Assembly (NCBI GenBank): GCA_963835065.1
Contig: CAWIEK010000048.1
Span: forward strand, 32,001 to 96,000
DNA length: 64,000 bases
Reading direction: 5' to 3'
From: an uncultured Chthonomonadaceae bacterium
Lineage (GTDB): Bacteria > Armatimonadota > Chthonomonadetes > Chthonomonadales > Chthonomonadaceae
Positions 6,670-64,000 of the stretch are shown here, piece by piece. The position numbers and the translations under genes are program-made. Under the pieces are notes generated by a model that made no database searches, had not been told where the DNA came from, and saw nothing but the letters and a program-made list of their open reading frames with translations. Positions within the stretch are counted from its first letter, which is position 1; each line of letters opens with the position of its first letter.

Positions 6670-9600
6670 TTACTTGACGCCCGCAGGCATCTGGTCGGCT
6701 ACGTCTTCCTTGCCGCCGGCTTTGGCGGCCGCGAGTTCCTGCTGTATCTGGCGGTATTCCAGCGATACCACTTTGACGAACTGCGCCTGCGTTTCGGGCC
6801 AGTTCTGGAGGAGGGACGCGCCCCGGTCACTGCGGGTGTACAGGACGTGCCGCTCGATCAGGGTTTTCAATTCGGCTACATCGGCTTCATCCGTGACGGC
6901 TTCCAGCGCGGTCTTGCCGCCGTTGCGGTTGCAGCGGGCGGGGAAGCGGCCTTTGGGGTCCCACACATACGCCACGCCGCCGCTCATGCCCGCCGCGAAG
7001 TTGCGCCCGACTTCGCCCAAAACCACCACCGTGCCGCCCGTCATGTACTCGCAGCCGTGATCGCCCGTGCCTTCCACAACGGCAGTCGCGCCGCTGTTGC
7101 GCACCGCGAACCGCTCGCCCACCACGCCGCGCAAAAACACTTCGCCACTGGTCGCGCCATAAAGCAGCGTGTTGCCCGCGATGATGTTCTCGGCGGGGTC
7201 AAAGGGCGATTGGCGCGGCGGATAGACAATGATGCGCCCGCCCGAAATGCCCTTGCCCAAGATAGTCGTTGGCGTCGCCTTCCAGCGTCATGGTAATGCC
7301 GCGCGCCAGAAACGCGCCGAACGACTGCCCCGCGCTGCCCGTGAATTTCAGGCGAATGGTGTCTTCCGGCAAGCCCTGTTCGCCGTATTTCAGCGCGATA
7401 CGCCCCGACAGCATGGTTCCCACCGTGCGGTTGCGGTTGTAAATCGGCAGTTCGGCGGCAACGGGAATGCCCCGATCCACCGCGCCCTGCGACAAGGCGA
7501 TGAGATGGTAGTCCAGAGCGTCGTCAAGGCCATGCTCCTGCTGCCTGACATGCGACTGCGCGTGTTTGTCCGCGCCTTCCGGCTGCGTGAGAATGGGCGT
7601 CAAATCCAGTCCCCGCGCTTTCCAGTGTTCGATGGCGCAGGTTGCGTCCAGCATGTCAATGCGCCCTACCATTTCGGCAACCGTCCTGAAGCCCAGTTCG
7701 GCCATGATTTCGCGCAGTTCTTCGGCCACGAAGAAGAAGTAATTGATGACGTGTTCCGGCTGGCCCGTAAAGCGCTGCCGCAGAGTTGGGTCCTGCGTGG
7801 CAATGCCGACGGGACACGTTCCCAGATGACACACGCGCATCATAATGCAGCCCATTGCGACAAGCGGCGCGCTGGAAAAGCCGAACTCTTCCGCGCCGAG
7901 CAGGGCGGCAATAGCCACATCGCGCCCCGTTTTCAACTGCCCGTCCGTCTGCACGACGAACGCGCCCGCGCAGGTCGTTTTTGACGAGAGTTTGCTGCGT
8001 TTCCGCCAGTCCCATTTCCCACGGGATGCCCGCGTGCTTGATGCTCGAAACGGGAGACGCGCCCGTTCCGCCGTCATAGCCGCTAATCAAAATGTGGTCG
8101 GCATGGGCTTTGGACACGCCCGCCGCGACCGTGCCGACGCCCACTTCCGCCACCAGTTTGACCGAAATACGCGCGGCGGGATTGACGTTTTTCAGGTCGA
8201 AAATCAACTGCGCGAGGTCTTCGATGGAATAAATGTCGTGGTGCGGCGGCGGCGAAATCAGCGTGACGCCCGGCGTCGTGTGCCGAACGCCCGCGATATA
8301 AGCGTCCACTTTGGTTCCGGGCAGTTCGCCGCCCTCGCCGGGTTTGGCTCCCTGCGCCATCTTAATCTGCAGTTCGTCCGCGTTGACCAGATAATGCGCC
8401 GTGACGCCGAACCGCGCGGACGCGATCTGCTTGATCGCGCTGCGCCGGCTGTCGCCATTGGCTTCGGGCGTGTAGCGGACGGGGTCTTCGCCGCCCTCGC
8501 CCGTGTTGCTTTTGCCGCCCATGCGGTTCATGGCAATCGCCAGCGTCTCATGCGCTTCCCGGCTGATGCTTCCGAGCGACATCGCCCCCGTCACAAACCG
8601 CTTCACAATCTCCCGCGCCGGCTCCACGTCGTCAATTGGAATTGGGCTGCCGACTTTGAATTGCAGCAGACTCCGCAGGGTCGCCAGCGCCTCGCTCGTA
8701 TCATTGACGTGCCTGCTGAACTCCTTAAAGTCGGCAAAGCCCTTTTGAAATGATGAGTGATGAGTGATGAGTGATGAATTGGATTCTGATTCATCATTCA
8801 TCATTCCGCGTTCATCATTTCCCCCCTGCCTTACCGCCTGCTGCAACTGCGCCACCGTATCCGGGTTGTAGGCGTGGTGTTCGCCGAAACGCCGCCACTG
8901 GTACTGCCCGCCCGGATCGAGGTCAATGCTGCCTTTGATGTCCATTTTGGGGTACGCGGACTCGTGGCGGGACAGGCTTTCCTGCTGAATGATGTCCAGG
9001 CCGACGCCGCCCAGACGCGACGGCGTACCGGTGAAATAACGCGCCACCATGTCTTTGTCCAGGCCGATCGCCTCGAAAATCTGCGCGCCCCGGTAGCTTT
9101 GCAGCGTGGAAATGCCCATTTTGGCGAACGTTTTCAGCAGTCCCTTGTTGACGGCTTTGATGAAGTTGATACTGGCTTTGTCCACATTGACTTCGGGCGG
9201 AAACATTTTGTCGCGCCCCATGCTGTCCAGCGTTTCCAGCGCCAGATAGGGGTTGATGGCGGACGCGCCGTAGCCGATGAGAAGGGCAAAGTGCATGACT
9301 TCCCGCGCTTCGCCCGATTCGACGATAAGACCCACGCATGTGCGCGTCCCTTCCCGCACCAGATGGTGATGCACGGCGCTTGTCGCCAGCAGGCTGGGAA
9401 TCGGAGCCGTGTGCGCGTCAATGTCCCGGTCGGACAGAATCAGGAAGCTGTAGCCATCCGCAACGGCGCGGGACGCGGACTTCGCACAGGTTTTGAACGG
9501 CTTTTTCCAGCGCGTCCGGCCCGTCCTCCACGTCGAACCACATCGGCAGGGTTTTGGCGTTGAACTCGCCCGTGCGGACATTGCGCAGTTTTTCCAGCTC

Positions 9601-11336
9601 GAAATTGCGCAGAATGGGCGACTCCAGCTTGAGCATGTGGGCGTGTTGCGGCGTGGCGTCCAGCAGGTTGCCGTCGCTGCCGATGAAGTCCACGAGCGAC
9701 ATGACCAGTTCTTCGCGGATGGGGTCAATGGGCGGGTTCGTCACCTGCGCGAACAACTGCTTGAAGTAGTTGTACAGCAATTGCGGGCGCCTGGACAAAA
9801 CGGCAATCGGCGTGTCCGTGCCCATGCTGCCCAGTGGCTGCTCGCCATTCGTCGCCATCGGGTACAAAATCAGGCGAATGTCTTCCAGCGTATAGCCGAA
9901 CACCTTCTGGCGCGTGAGCAGGGTTTTCTCGTTAGGCAGATGGATGAATGGCGGTTCGGGCAGGTTGTCCAGCGTGATGCGGTTGGCGTCCAGCCACTCT
10001 TTATAAGGATGCTGCGTACAGAGTTCGCGCTTGATCTCGTCGTCGCTGACGATGCCGCCGCTGACTCAGGTCAATCAGGAACATGCGCCCCGGCTGCAAG
10101 CGGCCTTTTTGCACGACGTGGGCCGGGTCGATATCCACAACGCCCGTTTCCGACGCCAGAACCACAAGATCATCGTCCGTGACGCAGTAGCGGGCGGGGC
10201 GCAGGCCGTTGCGGTCCAGCAACGCGCCGATCATGCGCCCGTCCGTGAAGCAAACCGCGGCGGGGCCGTCCCAGGGTTCCATCAGGCAGGCGTGGTACTC
10301 GTAAAACGCGCGGCGCTCGTCGTCCATGCCCGGATCGCCGGTCCACGCTTCCGGCATCAGCATCATCATGGCGTGCGGCAGGCTGCGCCCGCCCAACGTC
10401 AGCAGTTCGACGGCGTTATCCAGAGCGGCGCTGTCGCTGCCGGACTTGTTGATGAGCGGCAGCAGTTTCTTGATGTCGTCGCCGAACAGTTCGGAGGACA
10501 GGGATTTTTCCCGCGCGCTCATCCAGTTGCGGTTGCCGCGCAGGGTATTGATTTCGCCGTTGTGGGCGATGTAGCGGAAGGGATGCGCCAGATCCCAGGT
10601 CGGGAAAGGTGTTGGTGGAAAACCGCTGATGCACCAGCGCGAGGGCGGTGGTCGTGCGCAGGTCGCTCAGGTCGAGATAATAGGCCGCCATCTGATGCGT
10701 CATCAGCAGGCCCTTGTAAACAATGGTGCGGCACGACAGGCTGTTGACGTAAAAATAGCCTTCCTGCTCCAGGCACAATTCCACAATGGCGTTCTGAACG
10801 CGGCGGCGGATGAGGTACAGTTTGCGCTCGAAAGCGTCTTCATCGGCAATGTCCGCGCTGCGCCCGATAAAAATCTGCCGGATGACCGGTTCGACCGTTC
10901 GGGCCAGAGCGCCGATTTTGGCGTGATTGATCGGCACGTCGCGCCAGGCGAGAACGGTCTGCCCTTCTTCCCGTACAATCTGCTCGAAAATCTGCTCATA
11001 CGTGGCGCGTTCGTCGTCTTTGGTGGGCAAAAACAACATGCCCACGCCGTACTCGCCGGGGGCAGGCAAAGCGATGCCCTGTCCCTGCAATTCATCGGCA
11101 AAAAACTCATGCGGAATTTGAAACAGGATGCCCGCGCCGTCGCCCGTATCCGGGTCGCTGCCGGTCGCGCCCCGATGTTCCAGTTTGCGCAGCACGTCCA
11201 AGCCCTGCTTGATGATGGCGTGGGATTTATGGCCTTTGATATGCGCGACGAAGCCGACGCCGCAGGCGTCGTGTTCAAACTGCGGGTCGTACAATCCATG
11301 CGCGGGGGGCAGTTGGCCGGGTTTGGCTTGTTCCAT
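6670..11336 (-). CDS. gltB: Glutamate synthase large subunit (broken by several frameshifts)
   Basis: Consecutive ORF pieces carry [53 protein letters not shown] and [10 protein letters not shown]. Confidence 0.95.
8748..8820. repeat. Heptamer-repeat palindromic element in-frame within gltB
   Basis: (TGATGAG)n arm and (TTCATCA)-like arm; encodes [23 protein letters not shown]. Confidence 0.85.
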
Positions 11337-11628
11337 TGGCGTCGCTTCCGTTCTCGTCCAGCAGGGTGCAGAGTGATGGACACGGCTTGCCGAAAGCAGA
11401 AACAACGGGAACGCGCAGGATGGAAAAGCGGGAGGGCGCGCGGTCTGCAAGCCGTATCAGGCGTATGTGGCCGCGCTTGAATAAGGTGAAAAGCGCGTTT
11501 GCCACAGATTGCTTCCCGTCACGTCATTGTGAAAAGGGAGACAATCATAGCACAAAACGCGCCCCTTTGTCAATGTTTATACAAACGCAAATTTAGATCA
11601 TCCCTTCCTCATGCAGGGCCGACGCATC

Positions 11629-12076
11629 TAAACGGGAAAGAAAAAGGATATGTAGAGTCATCGTCGAAATCTTGGCAATGCAGCGCTTCCAGCCCGATGT
11701 CTCGTTGTGTCAAATTGTAGGAGAGAGGCGTCGTGGCCTCAGCAGCGTCAGGGCGAACGGGAGGAAAATACAGGCATCTTCCAGCACCTCCCTTCCGGGT
11801 TAGTTGATAGTTGATAGTTGATAGTTGATAGGAACTATGATCTTCAACGTCCCGCCACCTGGCTAGTTAGCAGCCTCTATTATATAGACTTATGTATACT
11901 TAGACGAGTTAGATGCGAGGAAGGTTCGTTTGTTTCTGCTATTTATGCAGAAATGTTTCTACTTTTTTGCACATTCTTTTTAGATTGATCAACCCGGAGG
12001 AGGGAGCAGGCGCAGCACAGGGGCGAATGACCTACGATGGGATACGTGTTGAGCATTTGAGATGCGCCGACCCTGC
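11629..12076. repeat. ~440-bp dispersed element, copy 1 (candidate sRNA/leader/small-ORF or non-autonomous mobile element)
   Basis: Collinear with 57487-57924; identical blocks such as GTCGAAATCTTGGCAATGCAGCGCTTCCAGC and AACGTCCCGCCACCTGGCTAGTTAGCAG. Confidence 0.9.
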
Positions 12077-12097
12077 TTCCTCATGCACTGCCCTTGA

Positions 12098-12187
12098 CAG
12101 AAGGAAATCGAACGGGTACACAGCAGGTATCAGCGGGCAAAGGAACACTACGCAGCCACCTACGAGGATAAGGACACGCACAAATGA
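12098..12187 (+). pseudogene. C-terminal remnant of a RelE/Gp49-like toxin
   Basis: QKEIERVHSRYQRAKEHY...K*; stop overlaps the antitoxin start (ATGA); 5' part missing. Confidence 0.55.
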
Positions 12188-12549
12188 CAGCTATCGTGGA
12201 GAAAGCAAACGCGCAGAAGAGCAGGAATGAGGAGGAAATTACGACTTCTTCCGGCAATGTCTACGAGGATTTAGGGCTGGCACACCCGGACGAGCGCATG
12301 GCAAAATCCGTAATAGCGCTGGCAATTACGGACGCTATCAAGGCGCGTAATCTTACGCAGGCAACAGCAGCAGAACTGATGAACGCGGACGCTTCCCAAC
12401 TTTCGGATTTGCAGCGCGGACGCCTGACCCATATCCCCTTCGACTGCCTGCTCCGGTTCGCCAATGCGCTCGGTCTCGGTGTGCAAATCACTATTCAACC
12501 CACTAATGACGAGCAGGGCAAAACATCAGCGCACACAATGGCAGGGTAA
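12184..12549 (+). CDS. XRE-family HTH antitoxin-like regulator
   Basis: SSGNVYEDLG N-terminal motif and LTQATAAELM..SQLSDL helix-turn-helix. Confidence 0.85.
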   Translation: MTAIVEKANAQKSRNEEEITTSSGNVYEDLGLAHPDERMAKSVIALAITDAIKARNLTQATAAELMNADASQLSDLQRGRLTHIPFDCLLRFANALGLGVQITIQPTNDEQGKTSAHTMAG

Positions 12550-57283: not shown

Positions 57284-57486
57284 GGCGTCTTCCTCCGTGT
57301 ACAGTAATATCGTTTCTTCCGCATGGTTCTTCGCTTTCAAAGGTAAAGAGCGTTCACGCGCAGATGTCAGGAAAGGAGATGTATTTTTATCCGCAAACAA
57401 TAAAGCTCCGGCATGGTTCCTACGTTCCTCTTTATTCTACCGTAGGATTATAGAATATCTGCTACGTTCTAAGGTCCGGGGCCTTG

Positions 57487-57924
57487 AAACGGGAAAAGAA
57501 AAAAGTATGTGAGACAGCGTCGAAATCTTGGCAATGCAGCGCTTCCAGCACAGTGTCTCGTTGTGTCAGGTTGTAGGGGTGAGGCGTCGTGACCTCGTGA
57601 GCGTCAGGGCGAACGGGGAGAGTGGACAGGCATCTTCTTGCACCTCCCTTCCAGGTTAGATTGTTGAGAGTTGATAAGAACTACGAACTTTAAACGTCCC
57701 GCCACCTGGCTAGTTAGCAGTCTCTAGAATGTAGACTTACATGTACATTTAGACGAGATGAAGTCAGAAAAGGTTCGTTTTTTCTGCTTTTTATGTAGAT
57801 TTATTTCTACTTTTTTGCACATTCTTCTTGGCTTGGGCAAACCGGAGGAGGGAGCAGGCGCAGCACAGGGGTGAATGACCTACGACGGGATACGTGTTGA
57901 GCATTTTAGATGCGCCGGTCCTGC
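57487..57924. repeat. ~440-bp dispersed element, copy 2
   Basis: Collinear with 11629-12076, same orientation. Confidence 0.9.
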
Positions 57925-59033: not shown

Positions 59034-62000
59034 TTGAATTCCCGGCAGTCAGAAAAGGCAATCTCCATTCCTCGCGTCCTTCTCTGCGGCTTTTTGCTGG
59101 CAAACGTTTCCGTTTCGCAGGCGGAGCGGCCTCCCGTAACCCGCCGCGCAGCAGATCGCCTTCAGCTGCGGGCGCTTCCCGCGCGCTGCCAGGTGGCGGT
59201 CAAGCAGGAAACGAGCCTTTCCCTGTCCTTTGGTTCCCCTGTCAAAGTGGATTCTGCCGCCAATCTGCGGGTGACAGGCGTTCCCAAAGGCGTTACGGCC
59301 TGGTTCTATCCCTCCTACTTAAATCGTACCGGCAACACGCTGTTCGTTCGGGCTGCCGAGCAAACCGTTCCCGGCTCCTACGCGCTTTCGGTGGAAACCG
59401 TTCGCAACGGCCATATTGTTTCTTCCCTTCCGGTTCCCCTGCGCGTGTTGCCTCCGGGTACAGCCGATGCAAGTCAGCGCCCGTTCGATTTTCGGCAGGC
59501 CGCGCAACATCAAGCCGCCGTTCCTCTGCCTGCTCTCGGAACCCTGCTTGACAATGCGGGGCATCTGTCCCGGCCTGTGTCTCCCAATACGGTGCGGCAG
59601 TGGCTGCACACCCCGCATAGCCGCCAAACAAAGGATGTTTCGACGGCGCAGGCGCAGATATGGCTTGGCGAGTATCTTCTGGCGCATGATGAGCAACCGG
59701 AAAAAGCGCGGCGGCATTTCCGGCAGGCGCAGCGCCTGCTGCCCCTTTCGCATCCGCTTTATGGCCTTGCCGCGTATGACAGCGCCCTGGCGCTTTATTA
59801 TGAGGGGGCGTATGGCGCGGCCAAAGACGCTTTTCTTGCCCTGCTGACAAACCGGCCTGCCCTGCATGGTTTCGACCGCAAAACGTGCGTCTTGTGGAGC
59901 CGCATGGCGATTGGCTGTTGGGGCTACCATGAGCAGCGTTCCGCGATGGGCATCCCTGAGCCGTCCAAACTCGACCCGGTTTGCGGCGCGGCGGGGCTTG
60001 CCGCCTGCATCCACGAATTGAACGGCGCTTACGATAAGAAAACCCTGTTGGGCGCATGCCGGGTTACGGGCGAAGGCAGCGTGATGGCGAACATCCTGGC
60101 CGCCACGCGCCGCCTGGGGTATGCTGCGCATCTCCTCACCTGCGACGAAGAGGGATTGAAGGCGCTGCCCAAACCGCTGATCGCGTATGTGGAGCATGAC
60201 CATTATATCGCCGTCGTGGACGCCAACGAGCATGGAGTCTCGTATCTGTGCAGCGACTGCGGGGCATGGCCGGGCGGGCGCGTTGACCTGACGTGGAAGC
60301 AGTGGCGAGCGCTGGAAGCCTCGCAGTACGTCGTGGTGCGCCGCCCGGAGGATACGTGGGATCAGGCGCTCAAGTACGCCAGCGTTCAGACGCCGGAACG
60401 AGCAGGCGGCGCACAACTCACGCTCGCCAGCACATCGCCTACGGCTCCCACACTTTTGGCGCGGCGAATGGCTGGAGCGCTCAAGGGGCATTTCAAGTTC
60501 AAGGATCAGCAGCCGACCAATGGGCCTTGTGGCACCAAACCGACAAGCCCCGATCCTCCACCTGCCACCTGTTCGTACACAAGCACTGATAGCTCAGGCG
60601 GACAGGTCGCTTCGGATGCTGGAATGACAGACACTGCCGGCCAGTGCGGTCTCCCTACATCGTGCATGCAGCAACCCAATGCTTCAATGGCTGACCCCTG
60701 GCCCTGATCCTGTGCAACTTGCTGCCGGTGAAGAGAAGTATGGGCCGGTTGGGAGCTTGAACGTTTATAATCCTTATGGGCCGTCCGTCAACTGGTACCT
60801 CCATTATCGCAGCCTGCGGGGGTGTGGACAGTCCTTCGCCTCGATAAGGCTATTCCTTTGCCTAGGACTTCACTATACGAAGATTACGTTTGTGGAGTGG
60901 GTTGGACACAGCCCTACAATGTGGGGGTCTACGATCCGACGGGCGGAGGCACCGGCACAAAATATATCTTCTACCCGGATGGCGCGCGTGTTGCCTTTAC
61001 GATGCCCGCCGTCCCGACAGCGGCTAAACCCAAAGTACAGGGCAGTGTGCAGGCCGGCAATGCGCTGCTCGTCGAGTGGGACTACGATTCCGCCACACAG
61101 GGTGGCTACTACGTCATTACCATGCGCGACCGAACCCGCCTGGTGACGACGGGCTACAATTCAGCGGTTGGCTGCCATCTCTTGTCTCGAATGATTGACG
61201 GCAATGGTCACGCGCTGAATTTTACGTATGGCTCACCGGCGCATACGAACGGTTGGCCGCTGCTGGCGAAGATCACGAACGATGCGAACACAGCGTTGCT
61301 GACCATTGTTCGGGCGACGGACGGCACGGGCAACATCACCCACGTTGACGACGCTTATGGGCGTTCGATCTACTATCACTGCAGTTACTATCCCTGCACC
61401 TACACTCCCTATCCCTATCCACAGGGCTATCAGGAGGTAAACCACATTTCGCAGCTGGTGCAAACGGCACTTTGAAAGCGCCGGATCACTTTGCTTACGG
61501 CTATCAGGGTATTTACAATGGTGAGGGCGAACTAATCCCCTTTTTGCATACCTTTCCGTTCCCTCGCCCACCGGAAATGGAACCAGCACCTCGACCATCA
61601 ACTACAACAATTACGTTCCGCTCCTCACCAGTCTGGTTGATGCCAACGGCAACACGCGGACGTACACATCCTCGGACGCGAACGGCAATTACGCCTATCC
61701 TCGGCCTATACGAAGGTCGCGGTTACGGACAACAAGGGCAATCTGGGTTACAGCTACATCGTCAGTTATAACAGCGCGATGGAGGAGACTTCACGTAAAA
61801 ACGGCGCGGGGCAGGTACTTGCCACAACTGTCTATGCCGACGGGAACGATCCGTATCAGCCTTCCTCCGTCACAGATGGCAACGGTCATACCTCCTACTC
61901 CTCCTACGACACCTATGGGAACATGACGCAGGCGACTTCGGCGCGTGGAACTGTCACCCATAACAGCTTCGATTACACGAATTTCGCGCTCGGCGAACTG

Positions 62001-64000
62001 AAAGCGACTGAGCAAGGCGGCAAAACGCCGACCAGTTTCACCTACTACGAGCCAAGCGGCCTGCCTAAAACGATCAGTACGCCCAGGCCGGGAACGCAGG
62101 GGAGTGGAACCGTCACAACCGCGCTCACCTACGACGGCCTGGGCAATATCCTCACCATCATTGCGCCCGGCAACAACGCTACGATTGTCAACGGCGTGGA
62201 TCAGGGCATTACCACGACGTTCAACTACAGTCTGACCCGGCCTTCAACTATCTACAGGCCGCGCAGATTGCACAGCCGATTACGGTCACAGACAACCTGG
62301 GACACACCACCCACCTGCGTTACGATGCCAGAGGCAATCAGACAATCGTATAGACGAATGAGGAAATGAAACTGATTTACGTTCAATATCGCCAATCAAC
62401 TGCTGACCACAACCGCGCCTGCAACCGGCGAAAATGGGGCAGGCCGCGCTTATACGCTCAACGCCTATTTGTACCCGGAAGGGCCGCAAACCGGCACGAC
62501 GGCGTATGATGAAAGCGGCGTGGCGATGCGGCAAGTCAAGTACGGCTATGGCGCGGAAGGGGAGCGTTTGTCTACAACGGCGATTTCCAGCGGCGGAAAC
62601 ACCACGCTTGCATCGCAGACGTATGACTCACTGTACCGTGTCAAGACGGTTTCGGATGGCAATAACCATGCCACAACGTATACCTACAACGCGGCGGGAT
62701 ATGTGTCAAAAATCGCCTATCCCGGCGTCAGCGGCGCTTATGATACGGTCCAGTACCCATCCTACGATGCGCTGGGCAACCCCTTGCAGCGTATTGATGG
62801 CAGGGGAATTGTCACCAACTTTACTTACAATGACCCGGAAAACCGGCTGACCGACGTGCAGTACCCAACCTATCTATCCCTGAACATCCATCTGGCTTAC
62901 GATGGTTATAGTCGACGGTCCGGCATGACGGACGGCACGGGCAGCAACAGCTACACGTATGACGACGGCAACCGCCCGCTTTCCGCGACAACCGCATATA
63001 CGGGCATACTCACGCAAGGGATTACATACAGCTACTTTGCGGATGGCAGTCGCCAGACCATGACCTCGCCTGCGGGCGTTTTCAGCTACGCTTATGACGC
63101 CGGACAGCGCATGACTTCGCTGACTAATCCGCTTGGCGAAACGTCAAGCTGGAGTTATCAGGTAAACAACTGGCTGCGAACGCAGACGTTGGGCAACGGC
63201 GTCACGAGTGCGTACACCAACGATGCGCGGGGACTCGTTACCAACCTGACCACGCAGGCAAGCTTGGGACGCAACCTGTCCGCGTTCAGCAGCATGGCGT
63301 ATGACGGCGTGGGCAATCGCGCAACCCTGACGGCAACAATTGCTGGCATTCCGACCCTGAGCGGCCAGACGCGCTACGGCTATGACTACAAGAACCAGCT
63401 TGTTCAGGAACAGTCCACGCGGGGTGGCAGCTACAACAACGCCTTCGCCTATGATCCGGCAGGCAACCCGACAACGTTCCGGGGCGTGTCTTTCGGCTAC
63501 AACGCGGACAACCAGAACACTACGTTCGGGTACGACGGCAACGGTAATCCGACGAGCTACAGGGGCGCAACGCTGGCCTTCGACCCGGAAAACCATCTCA
63601 TTGCCTATGCTCAGGCAATGACTGCGGGCTACACTGGCGACGGACTGCGTGCATGGAAGCAGACTCCCGCCCCACGAAGCAAAACCTACTTTCTTTACGA
63701 CGGCCTCACGCCTATTTGTGAACTAGACAACCTGGGTAAGGTCAAGGCCATCAACACGTTCGGCGCAAACGGCCTGCTGTCGCGCCGTTCCACGACAGGC
63801 AACGTCTTCTACACCTTCGACCCACAGGGCAACGTTGCGCAACGCCTGGACGCGCAGGGCAATGTGCTGAATTCCGTCCTGTTCGACGCCTACGGCAACG
63901 GCAGTAGCATGGGTGCTTCCCTGATCTGACCCCTTCGGATACGAAGCGCAATGGGGCTACTACCACGACACCGAAACCGAACTCTATCTGCTCGGCTTCC
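59034..64000 (+). CDS. Large secreted TPR + C39-peptidase + RHS/YD-repeat protein (several frameshifts; runs off right edge)
   Basis: Signal peptide; DPVCGAAGL..LPKPLIAYVEHDHYIAV; DPVQLAAGE; many YD repeats; DPFGYEAQWGYYHDTET core at the end. Confidence 0.85.

What the first reader, a model, noticed from the sequence alone, without database searches (positions are those of the whole stretch)
11629..12076. Unannotated ~440-bp element present twice, with conserved SD, 9-codon ORF and hairpin
Seen: 11629-12076 and 57487-57924 are collinear, diverged copies in the same orientation, each upstream of a minus-strand operon (gltB; the OsmC-like operon). On the minus strand both have: a -10-like box (TATAAT in copy 1); an invariant CTGCTAACTAGCCAGGTGGCGGGACGTT block; a strong SD GGAAGGGAGGTG; a 9-aa ORF (MPVFSSRSP 11748-11777; MPVHSPRSP 57604-57633) containing an anti-SD-like pyrimidine tract; a hairpin GAGGY-CACGAC-GCCTC whose one change keeps pairing (G-C to G-U); and a U-rich end. 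No transposase or terminal IR was found. Inference: a multicopy sRNA, leader-peptide or type I TA-like module, or a non-autonomous mobile RNA element.
Basis: partly seen in the sequence, partly recalled or inferred. Interest (0 to 1): 0.75.

Follow-up and report, generated by a model that had tools for sequence, protein, structure and literature searches.

The report
160-copy micro-ORF RNA riding mini-transposons
The two repeats are members of a 162-copy family of tiny genes, found only in one bacterial genus among the genomes searched, each with a predicted stress promoter, an 8-9-residue reading frame ending proline-stop and a conserved predicted RNA fold that likely acts together with a paused ribosome, and both window copies sit inside a miniature transposon shell.

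Summary
Confirmed, but much larger than reported. The two copies (83% identical) belong to a family with 162 copies in this genome and 47 and 13 in two congeners; none was found in 65 other genomes of the class, and there is no Rfam match. (1) The window copies have terminal inverted repeats (copy 1 also a perfect 10-bp target duplication), matching an ISAs1 transposase element in a congener: an ISAs1-type MITE shell, recognised around 15 of 162 copies. (2) The conserved promoter is ECF-type (GAACCTT...GTCTAA), not TATAAT. Within same-age shell copies, promoter boxes, SD, hairpin and core are 95-98% conserved while the shell ends are 77-83%. The micro-ORF ends Pro-stop, 7 nt before the hairpin, with synonymous and stop-codon variation. 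Copies are not leaders of neighbouring genes and avoid each other within about 15 kb. Best reading (0.45): a selected, multicopy, stress-induced RNA on which a ribosome pauses at Pro-stop next to a folded domain. Transcription and stalling are untested. This scan found the same family three times before on other DNA of this genome.

The parts
12076..12085 (-). Target-site duplication, left copy (10 bp), copy 1
   Evidence: 10/10 match to 11604-11613
12056..12075 (-). Left terminal inverted repeat (CAGGG...) of the ISAs1-type MITE shell, copy 1
   Evidence: Matches the ends of the ISAs1 element in G002
11928..11972 (-). A-rich upstream (UP-like) tract
11900..11927 (-). ECF-type promoter: -35 GAACCTT (11921-11927), -10 CGTCTAA (11900-11906); predicted start near 11893
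   Evidence: 149 of 162 copies match; 134 of 140 strict genome-wide matches lie at a copy; function inferred
11885..11891 (-). Second GTCTA motif, 16 nt after the -10 box
   Evidence: role unknown
11846..11873 (-). 28-nt leader block, specific to a subfamily
   Evidence: Exact in 6 of 162 copies, core in 32 of 162
11804..11831 (-). Four CTATCAA heptamer repeats in the variable leader
   Evidence: two or more repeats in 55 of 162 leaders
11785..11796 (-). Shine-Dalgarno, predicted paired with the micro-ORF's pyrimidine tract
11748..11777 (-). Micro-ORF MPVFSSRSP-stop, copy 1
11725..11740 (-). Hairpin P1, 7 nt after the stop codon
   Evidence: 97.8% of cells paired, one pair with compensatory change
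11649..11707 (-). Conserved core: stems P2/P3 closing an almost invariant 14-nt loop (11673-11686), ending in CATA
11634..11648 (-). U-rich tract, likely 3' end
   Evidence: no canonical intrinsic terminator called on this strand
11614..11633 (-). Right terminal inverted repeat (...CCCTG), copy 1
11604..11613 (-). Target-site duplication, right copy, copy 1
57905..57923 (-). Left terminal inverted repeat, copy 2
57749..57776 (-). ECF-type promoter, copy 2 (-35 at 57770-57776; -10 at 57749-57755)
57641..57652 (-). Shine-Dalgarno, copy 2
57604..57633 (-). Micro-ORF MPVHSPRSP-stop, copy 2
57581..57596 (-). Hairpin P1, copy 2
57506..57563 (-). Conserved core with invariant loop (57529-57542), copy 2
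57470..57490 (-). Degenerate right terminal inverted repeat, copy 2; no target duplication (3/10)
11544..11573 (-). gltB's own sigma70 promoter (outside the element; shows that the element is not its leader)
   Evidence: conserved in G002 and in G001, which lacks the element here

Best explanation
Each copy is a conserved small gene, present 162 times in this genome, that is likely transcribed by a stress (ECF) sigma factor into an RNA of about 170-260 nt, on which a ribosome is predicted to translate 8-9 codons and would pause at proline-stop just in front of a predicted folded domain; the window copies lie in a miniature shell whose ends match an ISAs1 transposon of a sister species. Shown: anatomy, copy number, selective conservation of promoter, SD, ORF frame and core, the fixed 7-nt spacer, the shell's inverted repeats and target duplications, and the matching ISAs1 element. 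Inferred: (1) ECF-dependent transcription from about 11893 to the U tract; (2) limited ribosome loading, because the ORF's own pyrimidine tract folds over the SD; (3) slow termination at R/H/L-x-Pro-stop, which puts hairpin P1 at +14 from the P-site codon, just outside the 11-nt mRNA channel; (4) the paused ribosome shields the RNA and holds the 3' domain, whose invariant loop binds a cellular partner (the ribosome or a protein), so that many copies sequester ribosomes or that partner under stress; (5) spread by ISAs1 transposase in trans for the shell form, and by gene conversion and other repeats for the rest.
For: Selection on the gene rather than on transposition: in 15 shell copies, mean pairwise identity is 0.96 (-35), 0.98 (-10), 0.97 (SD), 0.96 (P1), 0.95 (core), against 0.63 (promoter spacer), 0.74 (7-nt spacer), 0.76 (linker), 0.77 (shell) and 0.77-0.83 (inverted repeats). 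nhmmer finds 162 copies and no further relics. Promoter: 134 of 140 strict genome-wide matches sit at a copy, spacer 16-17 nt in 147 of 149; it fits the AlgU consensus GAACTT-N16/17-TCtgA (PMC10651043, passages). ORF: 154 of 162 copies have ATG 8-11 nt after the SD and stop before P1; all 154 end in Pro; lengths are 8 or 9 codons only. Across 214 copies from three genomes, 212 have a Pro codon and stop 6-9 nt before P1, 204 at exactly 7; third positions of the Pro and Arg codons vary over all four bases; the stop varies among TGA, TAA and TAG; G001 has 9-16-codon versions ending LPP or RPP. Structure: 90.1% of cells paired, 26 cells changed on both sides against 9.3 in shuffles, covariation 0.239 against 0.172, all above slid controls. 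Geometry: the channel holds 11 nt after +1 of the P-site codon (PMC7282821, passages). Pro-Pro-stop is avoided in bacteria and reported to stall in E. coli (10.1101/751305, passages); RSPP and HGPP are arrest motifs (PMC12992588, passages). Shell: 8 of 15 copies have target duplications of at least 9/10; G002 holds an ISAs1 transposase (NF033564, 402 bits, cut-off 70) between the same inverted repeats.
Against: No direct evidence of transcription, translation or stalling. Core-like contigs occur in 6 of 6 RNA-library runs laid, but they come from relatives, the runs were found through this sequence, and DNA carry-over of a multicopy repeat is not excluded. A single copy folds no better than shuffles (z +0.60). 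The number of pairs with two-sided change (5 against 4.6; 278 of 500 shuffles) and of further pair types do not exceed shuffles, and two central P2 pairs are mostly unpaired; related sequences inflate the other measures. C-terminal Pro is not rare here: 524 of 6416 crudely called genes, 45 with R/H-x-P-stop, so Pro-stop need not stall in this organism. R-x-P-stop is not the R-x-P-P of known arrest peptides. The Pro/Ser/Phe content may partly reflect anti-SD pairing. 8 of 162 copies lack an intact ORF and one G001 copy has an internal stop. Gene conversion could hold sequences alike without function. No canonical terminator was called. No partner for the loop was identified. No ISAs1 transposase is in this assembly (92% complete).
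Confidence: 0.45

Rival explanations
1. A selfish non-autonomous element: promoter, micro-ORF and RNA are conserved because the RNA is needed for the element's own spread (recruiting or guiding an unidentified transposase or recombinase), with translation merely protecting the transcript.
For: Copy number varies 13, 47, 162 between congeners; empty orthologous sites in 2 of 5 syntenic comparisons; shell with inverted repeats and target duplications; precedent ssr9/MITEPpu9 (PMC12288879, abstract and passages); spacing could reflect target immunity.
Against: The only mobiliser identified (ISAs1) carries no core and its signals decay faster than the RNA. No IS110 transposase in G000 or G001, one in G002 without a core. 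No similarity near reverse transcriptases or HUH transposases of G000. An RNA acting in trans would not select for intact copies in cis.
Confidence: 0.22
2. A cis-acting chromosomal landmark: evenly spaced, strongly transcribed and translated mini-units act locally as insulators, barriers to convergent transcription or nucleoid organisers.
For: Copies repel each other: 4 of 105 gaps under 10 kb against about 22 expected (minimum 10 in 2000 draws), while two other repeat families cluster; pair density 0.09, 0.25, 0.52, 0.79 of expectation in 5-kb bins to 20 kb; 100 of 161 copies face a gene on the opposite strand (about 42% expected, my arithmetic from that call).
Against: G001 manages with 13 copies; no strand bias with GC skew (75 of 158); loss of close repeats by recombination may explain the spacing; G002's smallest gap (13.6 kb of 36) is not informative at its density.
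Confidence: 0.13
3. A functionless mosaic repeat kept alike by recent amplification and gene conversion.
For: Promoter type and ORF subfamily differ at orthologous sites; copies are embedded among other repeats; weak folding of a single copy.
Against: Conservation follows functional boxes, not position, within the same copies; synonymous and stop-codon swaps, in-frame length variants; compensatory changes; no decayed relics.
Confidence: 0.1
4. A leader peptide, attenuator or riboswitch controlling the downstream gene (gltB, OsmC-like operon).
For: SD, short ORF, hairpin and U tract resemble an attenuator; both window copies point at an operon.
Against: Only 61 of 161 copies have a co-oriented next gene, at a median 205 nt; neighbours are unrelated (251 clusters among 317 proteins); gltB has its own sigma70 promoter, kept in G001, which lacks the element there.
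Confidence: 0.05
5. A type I toxin-antitoxin module.
For: An occluded SD and a small ORF are typical of type I toxin mRNAs (recalled); multicopy.
Against: The peptide has 8-9 residues with no membrane helix; the frame through the core is not conserved (linker length varies); no Rfam antitoxin match; no conserved antisense sigma70 promoter called.
Confidence: 0.03

Closest known systems
ISAs1-family insertion sequences and their MITE derivatives
   Same: Same terminal inverted repeats as an ISAs1 transposase element in G002; 10-bp target duplications; no transposase of its own.
   Different: Only the terminal 20 or so bases are shared with the IS; the interior is an unrelated gene cassette, and the shell was recognised around only 15 of 162 copies.
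ssr9 / MITEPpu9 of Pseudomonas putida (PMC12288879; abstract and passages read)
   Same: A small RNA gene with its own promoter inside a MITE, moved by an IS transposase in trans; restricted to few relatives.
   Different: IS110-based, 8 copies, antisense to the IS's own RNA; no micro-ORF turned up in the passages read. Here an ISAs1 shell, 162 copies, an ECF promoter and a translated-looking ORF, with no similarity to the IS interior.
MITEs with promoters or sRNAs (Correia, Coxiella QMITE1/2; review PMC10969869, passages read)
   Same: Dispersed intergenic repeats that carry promoters and give small RNAs.
   Different: Those carry sigma70-like promoters acting on neighbours; here the promoter points inward at a conserved cassette that outlasts the shell.
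RAPP-like (R/H-x-P-P) arrest peptides (PMC12992588, passages; PMC10951233, search listing only)
   Same: Short ORF with Arg or His three residues from the end, Ser/Ala/Pro next, then Pro.
   Different: A stop codon, not a second Pro, follows; only 8-16 residues; no regulated downstream gene; a Leu-Pro-Pro-stop subfamily exists.
Ribosome-pausing stem-loops at the mRNA entry channel (dnaX and HIV frameshift hairpins; PMC7282821, passages)
   Same: A hairpin at a fixed distance from a specific codon.
   Different: Those act at 11-12 nt during elongation in coding genes; here +14 at a stop codon, with no conserved downstream frame.
IS110/IS1111 bridge (seek) RNAs
   Same: Structured RNA of similar size in a repeated element.
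   Different: No IS110 transposase associated; loops are invariant rather than variable guides; no core beside the one IS110 gene found.

Membership tests
ISAs1-family MITE (shell of the window copies) | Terminal inverted repeats | tested here: met
   11 complete pairs at up to 3 mismatches, each enclosing one core; 15 at looser thresholds
ISAs1-family MITE (shell of the window copies) | Target-site duplication of constant length (about 10 bp; family value recalled) | tested here: met
   At least 9/10 in 8 of 15 copies, 10/10 in copy 1; copy 2 only 3/10
ISAs1-family MITE (shell of the window copies) | Autonomous element with the same ends | tested here: met
   G002 ISAs1 transposase between matching repeats; none in G000 or G001
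ISAs1-family MITE (shell of the window copies) | No transposase of its own | tested here: met
   453-462 bp; no ORF of 100 aa or more lies within either element, though one unannotated plus-strand frame (11913-12230) overlaps the end of copy 1
ISAs1-family MITE (whole 162-copy family) | All copies bounded by the inverted repeats | tested here: not met
   Both ends found in 15 of 162; most copies have other or no defined ends
Any Rfam family | Match at gathering score or E up to 5 | tested here: not met
   0 matches in the window; 0 in 11500-12200
RAPP-like arrest peptide | R/H-x-P-P motif | tested here: not met
   The motif is R/H/L-x-P-stop
RAPP-like arrest peptide | Ribosome stalling on the motif | not testable with these tools
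   Needs toeprinting or ribosome profiling
RAPP-like arrest peptide | Co-oriented regulated downstream gene | tested here: not met
   61 of 161 co-oriented, neighbours unrelated
IS110/IS1111 bridge RNA | Associated DEDD transposase | tested here: not met
   None in G000 or G001; one in G002 with no core in its locus
IS110/IS1111 bridge RNA | Variable guide loops that covary with target sites | tested here: inconclusive
   The terminal loop is almost invariant in 189 distinct cores; no covariation test against flanks was run
Group II intron fragment or retron RNA | Domain V match or adjacent reverse transcriptase | tested here: not met
   No Rfam match; no similarity near the two RT genes of G000
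Type I toxin-antitoxin | Small hydrophobic toxin and antisense RNA | tested here: not met
   8-9-residue peptide; no antitoxin family match; toxicity itself not testable here
ECF sigma-dependent small RNA | ECF promoter consensus with fixed spacer | tested here: met
   149 of 162 copies; spacer fixed in length, variable in sequence
ECF sigma-dependent small RNA | Transcript with defined ends, dependent on a named sigma factor | not testable with these tools
   Only contigs of relatives available; 57 sigma70-type matches in G000, none assigned

The most novel reading that the evidence does not exclude
A new class of bacterial RNA: a stress-sigma-driven, ribosome-parking RNA gene amplified to about 160 evenly spaced copies, in which a micro-ORF positions a terminating ribosome against a dedicated RNA domain to sequester ribosomes (or a partner protein) in proportion to gene dosage, and which has captured IS ends to spread.
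Probability: 0.3. Interest if true: 0.9.

Novelty: new variant of a known kind. Interest (0 to 1): 0.72.

Why it matters
Known bacterial small RNA families have one to a few copies (recalled), and the MITE-borne sRNA case read here has 8. Here 162 copies keep promoter, reading frame, spacer and fold intact while the transposon ends decay. If a ribosome pauses on each RNA, this would be an RNA-encoded way to throttle or store ribosomes under stress, and a 214-member natural mutagenesis series for termination at Pro-stop next to a hairpin. The unit is under 300 nt, so toeprinting, probing and reporter tests are straightforward. Even if it proves selfish, the exclusion of copies within about 15 kb and the selection on the cargo rather than on the ends need an explanation.

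Tried and rejected
Rfam at gathering score and at E up to 5: nothing. IS110 origin: no transposase in G000 or G001, and the one in G002 has no core. ISAs1 transposase in the own genome: none by profile or tblastn. Reverse transcriptase or HUH transposase linkage: no similarity near 2 RT and 4 Y1 loci of G000; of 12 transposase loci scanned with the model, 1 (L147, own genome) held a core. Homologues outside the genus: 0 of 65 other class genomes and 0 of 150 phylum genomes with the covariance model, which scored only the top 57 or 25 candidates per genome; 14 single pattern hits among 400 phylum genomes lacked the rest of the element on inspection; 5 viral hits and 28 metagenome hits failed the model (best E 0.25 and 0.44). 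A coding frame through the core: rejected because linker length varies and some copies have a stop. tRNA-like, T-box and ribozyme resemblances were considered from memory only and dropped, with no Rfam support. Enrichment of a neighbouring gene family: none evident (no background test). Sigma factor assignment: not possible. Strand bias with GC skew: none. RNA runs: small shares (0.04 of words), contigs of relatives only, no cover of the promoter or shell part; no evidence for ends or level. The primary paper on R/HxPP motifs could not be opened and is known here only through PMC12992588. Literature searches for this family listed nothing describing it; the library lacks most subscription papers and no supplements were read, where motif catalogues could hold it.

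Full report
Observation. The two stretches align collinearly on the minus strand, at 83% identity over 447 nt. Rfam has no match at gathering score in the window or at E up to 5 in 11500-12200. Three statements need correcting: the element is not two-copy, it does have terminal inverted repeats, and its promoter is not the TATAAT.

Copy number and range. BLAST of the 3' part finds 162 loci in the genome; a profile search gives the same 162 and no extra relics; 160 of the cores are distinct. The two congeners hold 47 and 13. A covariance model built from 31 copies found none in 65 other genomes of the class or in 150 phylum genomes, though only the top candidates per genome were scored. Pattern hits in viral and metagenome collections failed the model.

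The shell. Copy 1 runs from 12075 to 11614, bounded by CAGGG...CCCTG inverted repeats and a perfect 10-bp duplication. Copy 2 (57923-57470) has worn ends and no duplication. Genome-wide there are 11 inverted-repeat pairs at up to 3 mismatches, each enclosing one core; of 15 copies with both ends at looser thresholds, 8 have duplications of at least 9/10. G002 carries an ISAs1 transposase (NF033564, 402 bits) between the same repeats. The IS shares only its ends with the shell and has no core; its three complete copies do not show matching duplications in place. No ISAs1 transposase is in this 92%-complete assembly. The window copies are therefore ISAs1-type MITEs, but the shell accounts for 15 of 162 copies. 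Ends of a second, 78-88-bp MITE lie near 47 of 162 copies; 115 have no such end nearby, and the boundaries of shell-less copies are fuzzy. How those spread is unresolved.

The cargo. Each copy has an A-rich tract, GAACC(T/C)TT, a spacer of fixed length, and GTCTA(A): 149 of 162 copies match, and 134 of 140 strict genome-wide matches lie at a copy (a differently written pattern gave 33 of 98). This fits the AlgU-type ECF consensus (PMC10651043, passages). The leader varies from 28 to over 110 nt. Anchoring on the SD and translating, 154 of 162 copies give an 8- or 9-codon ORF that stops before hairpin P1; all 154 end in Pro; position -2 is Ser, Pro or Ala; -3 is Arg 144, His 6, Leu 4; 149 have 7 nt between stop and hairpin; 5 are frameshifted, 2 lack ATG, 1 lacks the SD pattern. 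With 39 of the 47 G002 copies and all 13 of G001, 212 of 214 have a Pro codon and stop 6-9 nt before P1, 204 at 7 nt. That anchor fixes the first two Pro bases by construction, but the third positions of the Pro and Arg codons take all four bases and the stop takes TGA, TAA and TAG. G001 adds 9-16-codon versions ending LPP or RPP, several with GTG, CTG or TTG starts, one with an internal stop. The SD is predicted to pair with the ORF's pyrimidine tract more than synonymous recodings do in 134 of 152 distinct copies. Downstream lie P1, an A/C-rich linker of variable length, and stems P2/P3 closing an almost invariant 14-nt loop. Diverged G001 copies show compensatory changes in P1 and P2. On 27 hand-picked diverse copies, with the structure adapted from the RNAalifold consensus, 90.1% of cells pair, and cells changed on both sides (26 against 9.3) and covariation score (0.239 against 0.172) beat all 500 shuffles and the slid controls; the count of pairs with two-sided change (5 against 4.6) does not, and two central P2 pairs are mostly unpaired. 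One copy alone folds no better than shuffles.

Selection. The clearest test compares regions within the same 15 shell copies: -35 0.96, -10 0.98, SD 0.97, P1 0.96, core 0.95, ORF 0.88, against promoter spacer 0.63, 7-nt spacer 0.74, linker 0.76, shell 0.77 and inverted repeats 0.77-0.83. The gene is conserved; the transposition signals are not.

Not a leader. By a crude gene caller, the next gene is on the opposite strand for 100 of 161 copies (about 42% expected from the same call's intergenic classes) and co-oriented genes are a median 205 nt away; neighbours fall into 251 clusters among 317 proteins. gltB has its own sigma70 promoter. G002 has a shell copy at about the same place, G001 has none and keeps the promoter. 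Of 32 G002 loci tested, 5 had both flanks syntenic in G000: 3 filled and 2 empty. At two filled sites the ORF subfamily or the promoter type differs between species, which points to gene conversion or replacement. Copies avoid each other: 4 of 105 gaps are under 10 kb against about 22 expected from intergenic sites, while two other repeat families cluster.

Expression. Six soil or biocrust RNA runs share 0.04 of the words; all six gave contigs on the core and none on the promoter or shell. They come from relatives, were selected through this sequence, and DNA carry-over is not excluded. This is not evidence of transcription.

Mechanism. With Pro in the P site and the stop in the A site, a 7-nt spacer puts P1 at +14; the channel holds 11 nt (PMC7282821, passages), so P1 would stay folded at the entrance. 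Pro-Pro-stop is avoided across bacteria and reported to stall in E. coli (10.1101/751305, passages); RSPP and HGPP are arrest motifs (PMC12992588, passages). I therefore favour an ECF-induced RNA on which a ribosome pauses, shields the RNA and presents a domain that binds a partner (0.45). Against it: the motif ends in stop rather than Pro; C-terminal Pro is not depleted here (524 of 6416 called genes); no partner is known. Rivals are a selfish RNA-dependent element (0.22), a cis landmark (0.13), a neutral mosaic (0.10), a leader (0.05) and type I TA (0.03).

Comparison and novelty. The closest described case is ssr9/MITEPpu9, a small RNA gene hitchhiking on an IS110 transposase (PMC12288879, abstract and passages); MITE promoters and sRNAs are reviewed in PMC10969869 (passages). 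The shell passes the MITE tests; the cargo fails membership of Rfam families, RAPP peptides, bridge RNAs and type I TA. Searches listed no description of this family; subscription papers and supplements were not seen. I file it as a new variant of a known kind (MITE-borne small RNA gene), with a 0.3 chance of a new class. Three earlier notes of this scan describe the same family from other pieces of this genome; they are not independent support. The even-spacing lead and the ribosome-holding wording came from one of them; I tested the spacing here. Added here: the named autonomous ISAs1 partner, the within-shell selection test, the filled and empty gltB sites and the second promoter type.

Noticed in passing
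window 7656-11450: gltB is split over several frames; it is also split in G002 but lies in one 1604-aa frame in G001. Likely assembly indels.
   Followed up: partly
G000 C1:163934, C37:205417, C63:68253, C66:328: A second MITE family, 78-88 bp, with inverted repeats starting GGGTCCGTAAA and mostly TAA/TTA flanks; its ends lie near 47 of 162 cores, sometimes in direct orientation on both sides.
   Followed up: partly
L006, L009, L012, L015, L018 (G001); L044, L130 (G002): A second promoter type drives some copies; the five G001 copies carry CAACATATAG, resembling an NrdR box (consensus recalled, not tested).
   Followed up: no
window 11885-11891 and 57732-57738: A second GTCTA-like motif follows the -10 box by about 16-20 nt in most copies; it could be a sigma-dependent pause element or an operator half-site.
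   Followed up: no
window 11804-11831: CTATCAA heptamer repeats, also scattered at many other sites in the genome and in 55 of 162 leaders.
   Followed up: partly
G000 C2:238650 and C11:1889: The flank before one shell copy matches the flank after another (9 bp), suggesting recombination between copies; many G002 copies sit at synteny breaks relative to G000.
   Followed up: no
L188:578-720: A full core and micro-ORF without SD or promoter, joined into an unrelated gene in a record titled Solirubrobacteraceae; it looks like an assembly chimera rather than transfer.
   Followed up: partly
G000 C49:681400-683450: A 400-aa reverse transcriptase frame followed by a frame that looks like Cas1 to me (recalled, not tested).
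   Followed up: no
window 59034-63929: Peptidase C39 domain protein followed by RHS-repeat frames.
   Followed up: no
run X1, contig on window 11649-11751: A soil RNA-library contig has the core preceded by 255 unrelated letters whose proximal part does not match the micro-ORFs seen here, hinting at further subfamilies.
   Followed up: no
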